From positions 16,988,001 to 17,052,000 of the forward strand of contig OX597830.1 in the NCBI GenBank assembly GCA_951406725.2: DNA of 64,000 bases. The letters are read 5' to 3'. The position numbers were made by a program. Shown piece after piece: positions 12,726 through 30,200 of the stretch; the stretch's first letter is position 1, and each line of letters opens with the position of its first letter. Source of the DNA: Octopus vulgaris (Eukaryota).

Positions 12726-15700
12726 GAGCACTCCGTCGGTTACGATGACGAGGGTCCCAGCTGATACGATCAACGGAACAGCCTGCTCGTGAAATTAGCG
12801 TGCAAGTGACTGAGCAATCCACAGACACGTGTACCCCTAACATAGTTCTCAGGGTGATTCAGTATGACATGGCCGGCCCTTTGAAAACTCATTTTTGCCA
12901 GCTGAGTGGACTGGAGCAACGTTAAATAAAGTGTCTTGCTCACGGTCACAACGCGTCGCCAGGAATTGAACTCACGACCTTACAATCGTGAGCCAAATGC
13001 CCTAACAACTAAGCTACGTACAACGATTTAGAATTTCCTTTTTGTTGCATATATGATATATATTATTCATACACAAAATATGGGTATCGTTAGTAAACAT
13101 TGAAAAGCGTTGCCCTTGTGTGTATATGCTTACACACAATCACCAAAAATATGGAAAAAAAAGGAGAAAAATTCATTATATTCATGCAGCTTATTTTGAA
13201 AGTTCTTCGAAACCATTTTATCTTTTCAATGGTTAGAAAAGAGGACAAAAAGTTTCAGTCATATGCAAATGAGTGTGCTCACAGACCCCGACGATTTGTT
13301 TCCTCATAACTTTCACAAAAATCGATATTTTCCAATGAAATTTTTCTACAGATATTGTTCAGTCTGTCTAGATACCGATTATATCGGAAATTGTTGTTAA
13401 AATGTTTTCACAGTGGGATGAGGGAGAGAATTTTCGGATAATTCATAATAATCTATTTGTTTCCTCATAACTTTCAGAAAAATAGGTTTTTATTACTGAA
13501 TTTCTTTTACAAATACCTCTCAGATTATATCGGAGTTTAATGTGAAAAAAAAAATTAATTAATATATGGTGGGCGCGCATATATACATACTAACATACAT
13601 CACAATTAGATCTACAAAAGGAAAGTTGAAATTTTGAAAAAATTGTGATGCGCCCACCAGTTTCACTCTTTTCTTTTTCTTTTCTTTTTTTCCACATTAA
13701 ATTTCAATATAATCGTTATCTACACTATGTGAAATGTATTTGTAGAAAATTTTAATTAAAAGTGCCAATTTTTCTGAAAGTTTTTAAGAAAAAATAACAT
13801 TGGTTCGTGGGAAATATCCGAAACTTCCCCTCCATCATCTCCCACCGAAATTTTCCTCTTTTTTTTTTTCATCCTTAAATCCTTAAAAATGTTTTAGCCC
13901 GAAGGCTGCGGCCATGCTGGGGCATTCGTAATCTACACGATCTGAAACGTAATTGTAAAAAGTTTTCATTAAAGACTATCCATTTTTCTGAATGCCATGG
14001 GGAAGGTACACTTATGTTAAGTATACTTTAGTTGGGTAACACCTGCGATTCCTCCTTTTGACAAATACTCGACGGAGATCTAGGGCCAATTTTTCTGAAA
14101 TTTTTTAAGAAATAACATTGGTTCATGTGAAATATCCGAAACACCTCCTCTATCATCTCCCACCAAAATTTTCCTAATTTTTTTTTCATACTAAATTCTG
14201 ACATGATCGTAATATACGCCATCTAAAACGTAACTGTAGAAAGTTTTCATTAAAGAATATCCATTTTTCTGAATGCCATGGGGAAGGCACACTTATGTAG
14301 GTATACTTTAATTGGGTAACACCTGCGATTCCTCCTTTTGACAAACACTCGACGGAGATCCATTCACTATTTAATGGGGGTTTTTTCTAGCAGTTGTCTC
14401 CCTTTAGTGTCTGAAATGGCGTCAAAGCGGCAAAAGTTGAAACTTTCAAAACGATCTTCGACCTCGGACTGTAATGACTCAAAACTCGACAGCAGTTCGT
14501 CTACGAAGGATAAAAGCTTTAATGATACTTCATGTAAGAATGATGGCAACAGGTATAATGATTTCCTTCAACTCTCATAAAGTTATTCATGAAGTTAATG
14601 CCTTTTACGTTCGTTTTCCTTTTAACAAAACAAATTCTTTAAAACATTTGTTGATGACAGCCACTGGAATGGTTCGTGCACCAGACAACATGCTTGGCGG
14701 TATTTCTTCCTGCTTTACGTTTTAAGTTCAAATGCCGCCGAGGTCGACTTTGCCTTTATTTTATTTTTTTGTTTTTCAGGGTCGATAAAATAAGTTCCAG
14801 CCAAGTTCTGGGGTCGATGTAATAGACAACCCATCCCCGCCCACCTCGTAACTGCTGTCCTTTTGCCAAAATTTGAAATCGTTATTACGAAAATTAAGAA
14901 GGTCGAAAAACAAAGGAATAAAATTTTGAAAATGTTTGTTCAGTTTTTAACGTCAGGCCAGCTCTCATTGAGCATACGTATGATCGATCAAAGACGTTCC
15001 AGTCATGCCCAGTCCATTTTTTCCCCTGGTCTACGTTGCTGAATATGTTCTTTTTTTTTTTTTTTTTGCGATCCTTCGGTATAAGTACCGTAAGTGGCTT
15101 TGTTTACATTTCTGAAGATTAACAGAAACCCTTTTCTCCCACCCTTAACCGTAACCCTAACCCTAACCCCCCATATATATATATTAAAAAAAAACACTTT
15201 CTTGAAATGTATCCGGTACATATACCGAAGTTACGCCTTTTTTTTAATGGTAGGATGTGAACTAAGGGGCATTTAGCTGCTACATCTAGCAGGTGGAGCG
15301 ACCACGAAGGGACCCCCGACATAGTGTTGAGTAAAAGGCAAGCTTCCTACGTTGAAGTCGGTTCTTGTGCCGATAAATACCCAGGAAAATTTTAAACGTT
15401 GCACCCGTTCAATTTTCCTTTGTAAATATATATATATTTATAGTTGTTAATCTCATAACCCTCTTAGATATTTAGAACCCTACTGAAGATTTTGTTTTCT
15501 TAAACTAATTCATGGCGAAAATAGATTTCACCCTCACCGTCTCATATAAAGGGGAATAACTCTGGAATATCTAAGTTATGCTCTATAAAAAGTAATGATT
15601 TCCCCCACTTTACGGTTGTCTCAGGTTACGGAATTTCCCTCAGGGAAATTGTAACGTATGGCTAATAAATTCGAAATATGGTTATGTAATTTCACTCTTG

Positions 15701-27200: not shown

Positions 27201-30200
27201 GCATATTACATGCCACCAGCATAGGAGCCAGGTGGGGGCACTGGCATCGATCACATTCGCATAGTCTTTTTACATGCCACCGGCATGGGGAGCCAGTTAG
27301 GCGACACTGGCATCGACCCATGCTCAAATGGTGCTTATTACATGCCACCAGCATAGGAGCCAGGTGGGGGCACTGGCATCGATCACATTCGCATAGTCTT
27401 TTTACATGCCACCGGCATGGAGAGCCAGTTAGGCGACACTGGCATTGACCCATGCTCAAATGGTGCTTATTACATGCCACCAGCATGGGTGTGAATCAGG
27501 CAGCACTGGCCAGTTTAATAATTAATTAGTTGCAATAAAGTGCATTTAAAATAACTAATTGAATAAAATTCATGTCTCTCTTTATCATTTAACAAACTGG
27601 ACTCTGTTGGTTATGACAAGGTTTCCAGCTGATCCAGTCAATGGAACAGCCTGCTTGTGAAATTAACGAACAAGTGGCTGACCACTCCACAGACACACAT
27701 ACTCTTAATGTAGGTCGTAGGGAGATTTAACATGATGCAGAATGTGACAAGGCCAGCCCTTTGAATTACAGGTACAACTCATATTTGCCAGCTGAGTGGT
27801 CTGGGGTAATGTGGAATAAAGTGTCTTGCTCAAGGACACAACATGCTACCAGGAATCAAACCCATGAACTTACAATTGTGAGCTGAGTATCCTAACCTCT
27901 AAGCCATGTAAATGTATGCTATATATGGACTATTAAAATTGTAACATAGATTTCTATTCTGTGTCCAGCTAACAAAATGATCTGTCCGTCAGTGTTTCTA
28001 GAAATACTGAAAGTATCACAGCAGCTAATTGCCTTTGATACATACATCAGGAGGATGGACAAACATAGATGAGATATACTGTCAATTATATTAGTAGATA
28101 AGAAGCAATCCAAAATGTTTTGTATTGTCAGTATTTGTTTCATCTACATTTTACTTCCTGTTTTATCTTGATATTATTTTTTTTTCCAGGATGACCCTGA
28201 GAGCAAGAAGTACACACATAGAAGTTTGTCTTGACACTGCAAGTAGTGATATTTGGGAAGATGATTCATAAGTCACAACTAGTGAAACCATCAACTAGAT
28301 ATTCCGAACAAAGGAAGGTTTGTTCAGTAATTTTAGGCCACAGCAGCAGATAGTGAAGATAAATATCAATGACAATCACTGATTCTTTGCAGCCTCTGTT
28401 TCACCCTATCTATATACATCTGCATACATCATCTTCATCATCGTTTAACGTCCGCTTTCCATGCTAGCATGGGTTGGACGATTTTGACTGAGGGCTGGCG
28501 AACCAGATGGCTGCACCAGGCTCCAATCTTGATTTTGGCAGAGTTTCTACAGCTGGATGCCCTTCCTAACGCCAACCACTCCGAGAGTGTAGTGGGTGCT
28601 TTTTATGTGCCACCGGCACGGGGGCCAGTCAGGCGGTACTGGCAACGACCTTGCTCGCATCTTTTTACACATGCCACCAGCACAGCTGCCAGTAAGGCGA
28701 TGTTGGTAACGATCCTGCTCAAATGGTGCTCTTTTACGTGCCACCAGCATGGAAGCCAAGATGGTCCAACAATTATCTTCAGTTTGGGGGAGTTATCATC
28801 ACTATGTTAGAGGTCACCCTAAAACTGCACACTGAAACTGTTACCATTCTCTCTCTAGATTGCTCATTTCTCAAATGTAAAAGCTGAATTGAGATTATTG
28901 CTGCAATTTAACCTCATAGTTATAGATTTATGGAGCTGGTATCACTTACCTTAATTTGTTGTAGAGCCATCACTATGAAACTCCATTCCATTCCAAGCTA
29001 AGGAAATTACACTACATTGGATTACGTACTGTAATCATGGCTCAAATTCAGAGTTGTTGCAGTTATTCCCATACTTGAGACAAGCAAGCAAGACAACAGT
29101 AGATATTACCAAACTAACCACCCCTCCTAATTTATTTGGAATTGACTGTAAAATGCCATAAGCAAACAAAAAACATCACTCAGGTTGTGTGGATCAAACT
29201 TGGCCCTTCTTTTTTCCTTGCAACAACAGACTATAATGCATTGTGCTAATTCAAGACTGTCCACTGTTGATTCTAATTAAAATTTTTGACATTATTGGAA
29301 CATTCAAAACCAATAGCTCTTTGGTTGTTATTTTCTATATGTTGTAAATATCATTCATCTTAAACGATAACTTTTTTCTTCAAGGATTTTGTATCGGGGC
29401 ACTCTTTGTTTGGTAATAGATTTCTTTGGCTTTCTGACTCTGAAATGTTCCTTATAGAAAATATATAAAGTCATTGAAAAAATAATAGGTTTAAAAATTT
29501 TTTTTTTTTAAAGTTAAATGTATCAGGGGACTTAAGTATATATTTGATATTTAAGCTACCGCCAACTAGTGGGTACTGGTAGAATATCCATGGATGTTAA
29601 ATAATCATTTTTATAGATATGATTACTTGTTGCAAACTACATTCATTCACTAGTTTAACATCCATTTTTTCCATGCTGGCACAAGTTTGACTTGAATAAA
29701 ATGTTCTCCTTTTATATATCATCATTTAACGTCCACTTTCCATGAACTGGACAGCTTCACTGGAGCTGGCAAGTCAGAGAGCTGCACCAGGCCCAATCTG
29801 ATCTGGCAGTGTTTCCACAGCTGGATGCCCTTCCTAACGCCAACCACTCCATGAGTGTAGTGGGTGCTTTTTACGTGCCACCGACACAGGTGCCAGGCGA
29901 GGCTGGCAATGGCCATGTTCGGATGGTTCTTTTACATTCCACCGGCACTGGTATCACAACTACAATTTCCATTGATATCCCTCTCTCTCTTTCGGAGAGG
30001 CACAAGCACCTACACGCACATATACACACACGGCAGTAACTTCCACCTACCGAATTCAATCACAAAGCTCCGGTCATATATATATAAACTATTTACAGGT
30101 TATATATGCGTGAACAGTTAAACTTTTGTACATAACTACTCAGTAGTCAGCTAAGTTATTCATTAGTATTTCCAAGTACCATAGGTCAACTAACTAAACA

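What the first reader, a model, noticed from the sequence alone, without database searches (positions are those of the whole stretch)
14416..28271. Hidden five-exon FAAP20 orthologue in a cephalopod-type genome
Seen: five short exons splice with compatible phases (2,0,1,2) into a 276-aa ORF. Known (recalled human sequence): FAAP20 has a basic N-terminus, PSLPAFP, WTPFP, and a C-terminal UBZ CPMCQKEF...HLAQCL...DVTW. This protein shows the same motifs in the same order: MASKRQKLKLSKR, PQFSKFP, WTPFP, CPICQEVF...HIEVCL...DIW. Early reports described FAAP20 as vertebrate-restricted. Inference: a lophotrochozoan orthologue would place the FANCA-FANCG-FAAP20 module in the bilaterian ancestor. Automated pipelines may list this gene as uncharacterised, or may already have noticed it.
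Basis: partly seen in the sequence, partly recalled or inferred. Interest (0 to 1): 0.8.

Follow-up and report, generated by a model that had tools for sequence, protein, structure and literature searches.

The report
Probable FAAP20-like gene, five exons
A small five-exon gene in this invertebrate-looking window most likely encodes a relative of FAAP20, the ubiquitin-binding helper of the Fanconi anaemia DNA-repair complex, but the match rests on short motifs and is an ordinary extension of a known family.

Summary
Five + strand exons (14416-14552, 17703-17817, 21083-21329, 25228-25477, 28190-28271) have GT..AG borders and phases 2,0,1,2. A spliced ORF of this length is not beyond chance: 12 of 12 shuffles gave longer ones. 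The acceptor quality and the motifs are beyond chance.

No exon reached a curated family cut-off. The half zinc finger at the end of exon 4 matched UBZ_FAAP20 (17.5 bits, cut-off 25) about as well as the autophagy-receptor finger (18.8 bits).

Exon 4's three nearest ESM Atlas clusters were all FAAP20, at a lead-level score of 0.80. Against residue numbers published for human FAAP20, the finger keeps:
- the Cys-Cys-His-Cys ligands and their spacing
- 5 of 6 core hydrophobic residues
- the tail Asp

It keeps only 1 of 3 ubiquitin-contact residues, and its Trp is shifted and not terminal.

Verdict: a probable FAAP20 orthologue (0.7). Transcripts, FANCA, taxon and prior annotation stayed unchecked.

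The parts
14416..14552 (+). Exon 1, coding part. It holds the ATG (G at -3, G at +4) and a basic, Ser-rich N-terminus of 45 codons plus 2 bases. The donor is CAG|GTATAA.
14374..14376 (+). Alternative in-frame ATG 42 nt upstream (T at -3). No stop lies between it and 14416, so it would add 14 residues. A TATTTAA overlaps it at 14368-14374.
   Evidence: sequence read directly
17703..17817 (+). Exon 2 (115 nt), with a strong acceptor and a weak donor AAG|GTCACA. It encodes a predicted helix (peptide residues 4-25) that holds an Ile-Phe-x-x-Leu-Arg stretch (Leu-Arg at 17746-17751), followed by PQFSKFP (17788-17808).
   Evidence: for the human W40/L44/R45 FANCA-binding residues
21083..21329 (+). 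Exon 3 (247 nt), lying in a 144-codon open frame. It holds WTPFP at 21137-21151, then a Cys/His-rich, Asn/Gln-rich stretch with no confident fold.
   Evidence: sub-threshold DUF7892 hit
25228..25477 (+). Exon 4 (250 nt). It encodes a Ser/Pro/Asn-rich linker and then the first half of the zinc finger (Cys-Pro-Ile-Cys-Gln-Glu-Val-Phe-Ser-Pro, 25446-25475). The donor is TCA|GTAAGT, phase 2. Unspliced read-through stops after one more codon.
28190..28271 (+). Exon 5, coding part. It holds the second half of the finger (His 28215-28217, Cys 28227-28229, Leu 28230-28232) and the acidic tail with Asp 28248-28250 and Trp 28254-28256. Four more residues and TAA follow.
13761..14360 (+). Two tandem units of about 280-320 nt (88-95% alike) ending 56 nt before the 14416 ATG. 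This may be the promoter region or a repeat insertion.

Best explanation
The five exons form a real protein-coding gene of 276 aa, or 290 aa if translation starts at the upstream ATG. It is an invertebrate orthologue of FAAP20.

The mechanism below is inferred from the human protein and not shown here. An N-terminal helix carrying a Leu-Arg pair, together with the proline/aromatic motifs after it, would dock on the C-terminal part of FANCA and stabilise it. A long disordered Ser/Pro/Asn-rich linker leads to a C-terminal Cys-Cys-His-Cys beta-beta-alpha zinc finger with an acidic, Trp-bearing tail. That finger would tether the FANCA-FANCG module to ubiquitylated proteins at damaged DNA.

The finger is encoded across a phase-2 intron. 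Retaining that intron ends the protein one codon later, without the His and Cys ligands, giving a finger-less isoform.

The residues that contact ubiquitin in the human finger are only partly kept, so binding in the human mode is the least secure step.
For: Gene model.
- Borders, phases and open frames check out.
- Three of four acceptors are in the top 3% of the 837 AGs in the region.
- The exon-4 donor is GTAAGT.
- The motif-coding patterns are unique in the window and appear in 0 of 100 shuffles.
- There is only one fitting second half of the finger downstream.

Identity.
- Exon 4 alone has FAAP20 clusters as its three nearest ESM Atlas clusters, out of 30 hits (score 0.80; PF15750 on 98-99% of members).
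- The last 21 aa of exon 4 match UBZ_FAAP20 at E 0.0035, 17.5 bits, model positions 2-13 of 35.
- In the PDB the same 21 aa give 14.6 bits in one stretch to human FAAP20 UBZ (3wwq_C). Each TAX1BP1 finger gives about 9 bits.
- Passages of PMC4267625 give human residue numbers. Counting from the second Cys, the window has Phe at +4 (human F154), Met at +8 (L158), His at +16, Ile at +17 (L167), Cys at +20, Leu at +21 (L171) and Asp at +27 (D177). It also has Ile at -3 from the first Cys (L144), and Pro-Ile between the two Cys (P148, M149).
- The fourth ligand is Cys, as in FAAP20. The competing Pfam family is described as C2H2.
- Exon 2 folds as one helix, with pLDDT 89 over residues 11-20. That stretch holds Leu-Arg with Ile at -4 from the Leu. 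In human FAAP20, W40, L44 and R45 are needed for FANCA binding (passages of PMC6400411).
- Fish FAAP20 is 251-255 aa, in 4-5 exons over 10-12 kb (passage of PMC11575085). This model is 276 aa, in 5 exons over 13.9 kb.
- Only human isoforms with an intact finger and C-terminal Trp bind ubiquitin. That fits a finger that splicing can remove.
Against: - No exon peptide reaches any curated cut-off.
- The half finger scores slightly better against the autophagy-receptor finger Zn-C2H2_12 (E 0.0023, 18.8 bits) than against UBZ_FAAP20.
- TAX1BP1 and NDP52 have lower whole-chain E-values in the PDB (0.0037 and 0.033) than FAAP20 (0.2).
- Exon 5 alone matched nothing in Pfam or the PDB at E up to 10.
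- PF15751 (FANCA_interact) matched neither exons 1-3 nor 21-30-aa pieces of them.
- The PDB gave no FAAP20 hit for exons 2 and 3.
- The Atlas score of 0.80 is one that a third of shuffled proteins reach for their first hit. Exon 3 gave no usable Atlas hit.
- At the positions of the human ubiquitin contacts D164 and A168 the window has Ser and Glu. The D164A and A168Y mutants of the human finger do not bind ubiquitin.
- At V163 the window has Arg.
- The Trp lies one residue nearer the finger than W180 and is not the last residue.
- No Ser-Pro follows the Leu-Arg, where human FAAP20 has S48-P49.
- The exon-2 donor is weak.
- No transcript, no FANCA and no relative from another invertebrate could be examined.
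Confidence: 0.7

Rival explanations
1. It is a real gene for a small ubiquitin-binding-finger protein that is not orthologous to FAAP20. It could be a lineage-specific adaptor, or a relative of the autophagy-receptor or XAF1-type finger proteins. The FAAP20-like motifs would then be convergent or chance.
For: - Zn-C2H2_12 scores as high as UBZ_FAAP20 on the half finger.
- TAX1BP1 and NDP52 head the PDB list by E-value.
- Rank 4 in the Atlas is an XAF1 C-terminal cluster at 0.79.
- The FANCA_interact profile did not match.
- Two of three ubiquitin contacts of FAAP20 are not kept.
Against: - The fourth ligand is Cys, not the His implied by a family described as C2H2.
- The TAX1BP1 E-value comes from summing two fingers of about 9 bits each.
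- Exons 1-3 show no SKICH, coiled-coil or TRAF-type domain.
- The tail Asp and a near-terminal Trp fit the feature described as unique to FAAP20.
- The top three Atlas clusters are FAAP20.
- Size and exon count fit fish FAAP20.
Confidence: 0.15
2. It is a FAAP20-like gene, but the exon set is partly wrong. Possible errors are the other start codon, a different exon-2 donor, further coding exons in the 3-kb introns, or exon 1 belonging to the upstream repeat rather than to the gene.
For: - There is an in-frame ATG at 14374.
- The exon-2 donor is weak. From the printed sequence, an equally weak phase-0 alternative 36 nt further on would end the exon at 17853.
- A tandem duplication ends 56 nt before the ATG.
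- Loose splice rules allow many other chains.
Against: - The chosen sites include three top-3% acceptors and a consensus GTAAGT donor.
- The 14416 ATG has the better context.
- None of the 6 intron ORFs tested (17116-17496, 24315-24662, 18029-18406, 20464-20826, 23601-23909, 23913-24224) matched Pfam.
Confidence: 0.1
3. It is not a functional gene. It would be chance open frames joined by eye, or a decayed pseudogene.
For: - Spliced ORFs longer than 276 codons arise in 12 of 12 shuffles under loose rules.
- No family hit passes a cut-off.
- The single-sequence fold of exon 3 has pLDDT 37.
Against: - All five frames are open, including a 144-codon frame, against a window mean of 16.8.
- Acceptor quality is high.
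- The motif patterns appear in 0 of 100 shuffles.
- The two halves of a four-ligand finger meet in phase across an intron with the published spacing.
- FAAP20 came out of 7.7 million Atlas clusters without being asked for.
Confidence: 0.05

Closest known systems
FAAP20 (C1orf86), FANCA-FANCG-FAAP20 module of the Fanconi anaemia core complex; Pfam PF15750 UBZ_FAAP20 and PF15751 FANCA_interact
   Same: - It is a small protein with a C-terminal Cys-Cys-His-Cys finger.
- The ligand spacing 2/15/3 is the same.
- 5 of 6 core hydrophobic positions are kept, as are Leu at +1 from the last Cys and Asp at +7.
- There is an acidic tail with a Trp.
- The middle of the protein is disordered.
- There is an N-terminal helix with Leu-Arg.
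- Its 5 exons over about 14 kb resemble fish FAAP20.
   Different: - It is longer than the 180-residue human isoform used.
- Ser and Glu replace the ubiquitin contacts Asp and Ala.
- Arg sits at the V163 position.
- The Trp is one residue closer to the finger and is followed by four residues.
- Ile/Phe stand where human has W40.
- There is no Ser-Pro after the Leu-Arg.
- The middle exon is Cys/His-rich.
- No profile hit to FANCA_interact was found at exon level.
C-terminal ubiquitin-binding fingers of the autophagy receptors TAX1BP1 and NDP52/CALCOCO2 (Pfam PF18112 Zn-C2H2_12)
   Same: The first half of the finger (Cys-Pro-x-Cys, then Phe, then Pro) matches equally well. The finger sits at the C-terminal end of the protein.
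   Different: - That family is described as C2H2, and here the fourth ligand is Cys.
- No second finger was found here, whereas TAX1BP1 shows two.
- Exons 1-3 gave no Pfam hit to any domain family of such receptors.
- The Asp...Trp tail is described as peculiar to FAAP20.

Membership tests
FAAP20 | Zinc ligands Cys-Cys-His-Cys at the positions of C147, C150, H166 and C170 (spacing 2/15/3) | tested here: met
   Exon 4 ends with Cys-x2-Cys plus 6 residues. One split codon follows (CAG). Exon 5 then has 8 residues, His, 3 residues and Cys. The human numbers come from PMC4267625 passages. Whether this spacing is unique to FAAP20 was not tested. By recall, TAX1BP1-type fingers share it.
FAAP20 | Hydrophobic core of the finger (L144, M149, F154, L158, V163, L167) | tested here: met
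   5 of 6 equivalent offsets are hydrophobic (Ile, Ile, Phe, Met, Ile). The V163 position is Arg.
FAAP20 | Ubiquitin-contact D-A-L motif on the helix (D164, A168, L171) | tested here: not met
   Only 1 of 3 is kept: Ser, Glu, Leu at the equivalent offsets. D164A and A168Y abolish binding in the human finger.
FAAP20 | Tail with invariant Asp (D177) and a Trp as the very last residue (W180) | tested here: inconclusive
   Asp is at the same offset (+7 from the last Cys). Trp is at +9 instead of +10 and is followed by Glu-Asp-Asp-Ser.
FAAP20 | Pfam PF15750 UBZ_FAAP20 above its gathering score (25 bits) | tested here: inconclusive
The first half alone scores 14.5 bits within exon 4 and 17.5 bits as a 21-aa piece, on model positions 2-13 of 35. 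Exon 5 alone gives no hit.
FAAP20 | Pfam PF15751 FANCA_interact in the N-terminal half | tested here: inconclusive
   No hit at E up to 10 for exons 1, 2 and 3 or for three sub-pieces of them (two of 30 aa, one of 21 aa). The region is split over exons. Only 14%, 77% and 69% of members of the three Atlas FAAP20 clusters carry this family.
FAAP20 | FANCA-binding residues W40, L44, R45 within residues 31-48 | tested here: inconclusive
   Leu-Arg is present in a confidently predicted helix. Ile is at -4 and Phe at -3 from the Leu, in place of Trp.
FAAP20 | Physical binding to and stabilisation of FANCA, and presence of FANCA and FANCG in the genome | not testable with these tools
   Only this 64-kb window was available, and it holds no FANCA-like ORF among the 26 ORFs put to Pfam.
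FAAP20 | Reciprocal best match of the whole protein to FAAP20 | not tested
FAAP20 | Gene architecture (few short exons, about 250 aa in fish) | tested here: met
   The model has 5 exons, 276 aa and spans 13.9 kb. Notothenioid fish FAAP20 has 4-5 exons, 251-255 aa and spans 10-12 kb. Intron positions could not be compared.
Autophagy-receptor UBZ (PF18112 Zn-C2H2_12) | C2H2 ligand set, and score above 23.2 bits | tested here: not met
   The score is 15.9 to 18.8 bits, on the first 12 of 27 model positions only. The fourth ligand in the window is Cys.

The most novel reading that the evidence does not exclude
This is a true protostome FAAP20, so FAAP20 predates vertebrates. Its finger has replaced two of the three residues that the human finger needs to grip ubiquitin, has moved the essential Trp off the C-terminus, and has gained a Cys/His-rich middle exon. 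The ancestral FAAP20 finger may therefore have recognised ubiquitin in another way, or recognised another ligand, with the human D-A-L/terminal-Trp mode being a later refinement.
Probability: 0.2. Interest if true: 0.45.

Novelty: new member of a known kind. Interest (0 to 1): 0.3.

Why it matters
FAAP20 is short and evolves fast, so its range outside vertebrates is poorly documented. In the papers I could search, none holds both 'FAAP20' and a word starting 'mollus'.

A protostome copy would show that the FANCA-stabilising, ubiquitin-reading subunit is as old as the rest of the core complex. One survey already describes that complex as relatively complete in early animals (passage of PMC11061109).

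The replaced ubiquitin-contact residues offer a natural test of which parts of the finger are essential.

The gain is modest. It adds a member to a known family, and annotation pipelines running PF15750 on the spliced protein may already name it. I could not check that.

Tried and rejected
- PDB sequence searches. Exon 3, exon 5, exon 2 and 20-30-aa pieces of exons 2 and 3 returned no FAAP20 chain at E up to 10. The few rows returned (one designed protein; CD55) are chance-level. Exon 4 as a whole gave only weak low-complexity matches.
- Atlas search with exon 3 gave no usable hit.
- Single-sequence fold of exon 3 had mean pLDDT 37 and is uninformative. I did not send it to fold search.
- The DUF7892 match in exon 3 (E 3e-4, 20.6 bits, cut-off 27) is sub-threshold and compositional. 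I did not pursue it.
- Rfam at gathering scores and ARAGORN found nothing in the window.
- The AATAAA scan gave 154 matches against 121 expected. The first on the + strand after the stop is at 29695, which is no useful evidence for the 3' end.
- Two literature searches were badly designed and say nothing. Searches used min_terms, and the listed papers held no FAAP20, FANCA or FANCG.
- PMC3398238 and PMC4898443 are not held.
- Complex prediction, fold search and the genome-contig scan were not used.
- The spliced (joined) protein was not translated, searched or folded.

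
Full report
**Scope.** I followed that. The 276-aa spliced protein was never translated, typed, searched or folded. This is the main limit on what follows, because the zinc finger and the presumed FANCA-binding region are both split by introns. The large protein databases, the viral and metagenome collections and paper supplements were closed. The genome-contig collection holds only bacteria and archaea and was not used. The window has no N.

**1. The observation.**

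Their lengths are 137, 115, 247, 250 and 82 nt, which is 831 nt, or 276 codons plus TAA. The cumulative phases are 2, 0, 1, 2.

All four introns (2.7-3.9 kb) run from GT to AG. The in-frame peptides of the exons (45, 38, 82, 82 and 26 aa) are open. The split codons read AGT, GGT and CAG.

Is it more than chance? The spliced ORF as such is not. With only ATG, GT..AG and a stop required, all 12 of 12 shuffles of 14300-28400 gave chains with up to four introns longer than 831 nt (mean 1141 nt). The real region allows 1758 nt.

Other features are beyond chance:
- **Acceptors.** They carry 14, 14, 11 and 13 pyrimidines in the 17 positions before the AG. Among the 837 AGs in the region, 1.0% reach 14, 3.0% reach 13 and 8.5% reach 12.
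- **Donors.** They score 3, 3, 4 and 4 of 6 consensus positions. Of the 870 GTs, 29% reach 3 and 6.8% reach 4. The exon-4 donor is GTAAGT.
- **Open frames.** The stop-to-stop frames that hold the exons are 86, 66, 144, 89 and 57 codons long, against a window mean of 16.8. Only 10 of 7188 frames reach 144 codons.
- **Motif patterns.** DNA patterns for WTPFP and for Cys-Pro-x-Cys-Gln-x-x-Phe-x-Pro each occur once in the window and in 0 of 100 shuffles.
- **Second half of the finger.** Among 43 His-x3-Cys pattern hits on the + strand between 25478 and 45000, only the exon-5 frame has a fitting context.

Weak points of the model:
- The exon-2 donor AAG|GTCACA has C at +3.
- An in-frame ATG at 14374 has no stop before 14416. 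It has a poorer context (T at -3) and overlaps a TATTTAA, so the protein may be 290 aa.
- A two-unit tandem duplication of about 280-320 nt (88-95% identity) ends 56 nt before the 14416 ATG.

**2. What it is.**

*Family and structure searches, exon by exon.*
- Pfam gave nothing above a curated cut-off. No exon, and none of three sub-pieces of exons 1-3 (21-30 aa), matched PF15751 FANCA_interact.
- The last 12 residues of exon 4, the first half of a zinc finger, matched two families about equally. Zn-C2H2_12, the autophagy-receptor finger, gave E 0.018 within the exon and E 0.0023 (18.8 bits, cut-off 23.2) as a 21-aa piece. UBZ_FAAP20 gave E 0.032, then E 0.0035 (17.5 bits, cut-off 25), on model positions 2-13 of 35.
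- In the PDB the same 21 aa found TAX1BP1 first (E 0.0037), but through two fingers of about 9 bits each. NDP52 came next (E 0.033). Human FAAP20 UBZ followed at E 0.2 and 0.33 with a single stretch of 14-14.6 bits, the best single stretch in the list.
- Exon 5 alone matched nothing. So at this level the first half of the finger is a generic ubiquitin-binding-finger half.

*ESM Atlas.* This search is independent of alignment. For exon 4 it returned three FAAP20 clusters as the nearest of 30 hits. All scored 0.80, PF15750 is on 98-99% of members, and the commonest phylum is Chordata. An XAF1 C-terminal cluster came fourth at 0.79. By the tool's own calibration, 0.80 is a lead only. Still, the family was not asked for, and it is one among 7.7 million clusters. 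Exon 3 gave no usable hit.

*Published residue numbers for the human finger.* Passages of PMC4267625 allow a position-by-position test without any recalled sequence.
- Human zinc ligands are C147, C150, H166 and C170.
- In the window, exon 4 ends with Cys-x2-Cys and six more residues. The split codon adds one. Exon 5 gives eight more before His-x3-Cys. The spacing is therefore the same 2/15/3, and the fourth ligand is Cys.
- 5 of 6 core hydrophobic positions are hydrophobic here: Ile for L144, Ile for M149, Phe for F154, Met for L158 and Ile for L167. Arg stands at V163.
- Pro follows the first Cys, as in P148.
- Leu follows the last Cys, as in L171.
- Asp lies seven residues after the last Cys, as in the invariant D177.
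- Against this, the ubiquitin contacts D164 and A168 are Ser and Glu here. D164A and A168Y each abolish binding in the human finger.
- The Trp lies nine residues after the last Cys rather than ten. It is followed by four residues, whereas the paper stresses a terminal Trp.

*N-terminal half.*
- The tests are weaker. In human FAAP20, residues 31-48 and W40, L44 and R45 are needed for FANCA binding, and S48-P49 is a PIN1 site (passages of PMC6400411).
- Exon 2 is predicted as one helix (residues 4-25, pLDDT 89 over residues 11-20; single sequence). It holds Leu-Arg with Ile and Phe four and three residues before the Leu. No Ser-Pro follows.
My own recollection agrees with it, and with similar spacing between the motifs. 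No call confirmed it, so it counts as a lead.

*Architecture.*
- Notothenioid fish FAAP20 is 251-255 aa, in 4 or 5 exons over 10-12 kb (figure legend in PMC11575085). That is much like this model.
- Unspliced read-through of exon 4 stops after one further codon, giving a protein without the His and Cys ligands.
- The human gene also makes isoforms without an intact finger.

*Surroundings.*
- Upstream lie a Helitron fragment (4949-5251, -) and a LINE (endonuclease 7780-8169, reverse transcriptase 8755-9792, +).
- A reverse-transcriptase fragment lies at 32283-32837 (-).
- An SH3BP5-like gene lies on the - strand. One exon sits in the 55300-55575 frame and a 495-codon last exon at 45405-46892. 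It is convergent with the FAAP20-like gene.
- There is no FANCA-like or SKI-like ORF among the 26 ORFs I put to Pfam.
- The taxon could not be tested.

**3. How it most likely works.**

This is inferred from the human protein. The N-terminal helix and the motifs after it would bind the C-terminal part of FANCA and stabilise it. A disordered linker carries the C-terminal finger, which would bind ubiquitin conjugates near stalled forks and so help bring in the core complex. Intron-4 retention would give a finger-less form.

What is shown here: the gene structure as far as sequence alone can show it, the four ligands and core of the finger, and a predicted helix. What is not shown: expression, FANCA binding and ubiquitin binding. 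With Ser and Glu at two essential contact positions, ubiquitin binding in the human mode is doubtful.

**4. Comparison and membership.**

The gene works like FAAP20 and probably is one. Two defining features stand against a clean filing. The D-A-L contact motif was tested and not met. The terminal Trp was only partly met. The profile and reciprocal tests are inconclusive or undone.

The closest alternative is the autophagy-receptor finger. It fails on the fourth ligand, and I found no second finger and no Pfam match in exons 1-3 to any other domain of such receptors.

**5. Novelty.**

In the searchable library no paper holds both 'FAAP20' and a word starting 'mollus' (0 papers).
- The 6 papers with 'FAAP20' and 'invertebrate', of which I read passages in 2, say nothing about invertebrate FAAP20.
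- Of the 16 papers with 'FAAP20' and 'metazoa', 10 were listed and I read passages in 2. They do not address it either.
- The 5 papers with the full protein name (listing only) are about vertebrates or methods.
- One survey states that early animals, including sponges, have a relatively complete Fanconi pathway. It lists PF15750 among its query families (PMC11061109). Its figure 2 and supplementary table, which I could not see, may already show FAAP20 outside vertebrates.
- The claim that early reports called FAAP20 vertebrate-restricted is recalled. The papers that could confirm it are not held.

I rate this a new member of a known kind, possibly already annotated.

**6. Verdict.**

Probable FAAP20 orthologue, confidence 0.7. 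Interest 0.3.

Noticed in passing
window 45405-46892 (-) and 55300-55575 (-): An SH3BP5-like gene on the minus strand. A 495-codon open frame matches the end of Pfam SH3BP5 (E 1.4e-10), and an upstream exon matches positions 26-74 (E 1.1e-14). It is convergent with the FAAP20-like gene.
   Followed up: partly
window 7780-9792 (+), 32283-32837 (-), 4949-5251 (-): Transposon remains. A LINE has endonuclease (sub-threshold, E 4e-4) and reverse-transcriptase (E 1e-17) parts. There is a second reverse-transcriptase fragment (E 3e-17) and a Helitron helicase-like N-terminal fragment (E 4e-13).
   Followed up: partly
window 13761-14360 (+): Two tandem units of about 280-320 nt, 88-95% alike, ending 56 nt before the proposed start codon. 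A 27-nt probe from the unit finds only these two copies in the window.
   Followed up: partly
window 27003-27486 and 25745-26109: Inside intron 4 there is a 132-nt unit repeated 3.7 times (92% matches). Just after exon 4 there is a 184-nt unit repeated twice (88% matches). The latter looks SINE-like to me by recall only. Similar open frames recur at 28373-28810, 52441-52788 and 61130-61480.
   Followed up: no
window 21158-21298 (exon 3): A Cys/His-rich stretch (Cys-x2-Cys, His-Cys, then His-x-His-x2-His) with a sub-threshold match to Pfam DUF7892 (E 3e-4, 20.6 bits, cut-off 27). The single-sequence model has pLDDT 37. A second metal site is possible but unsupported.
   Followed up: partly
window 254-878 and 57194-57579: Long microsatellite-like tracts that give spurious open frames of 110-200 codons in several frames on the minus strand (Thr-His/Leu-Ser and Ile-Tyr repeats).
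   Followed up: no
window 25476-25481: If intron 4 is retained, the frame stops one codon after the exon end. That would give a protein with only the first two zinc ligands, a possible finger-less isoform.
   Followed up: partly
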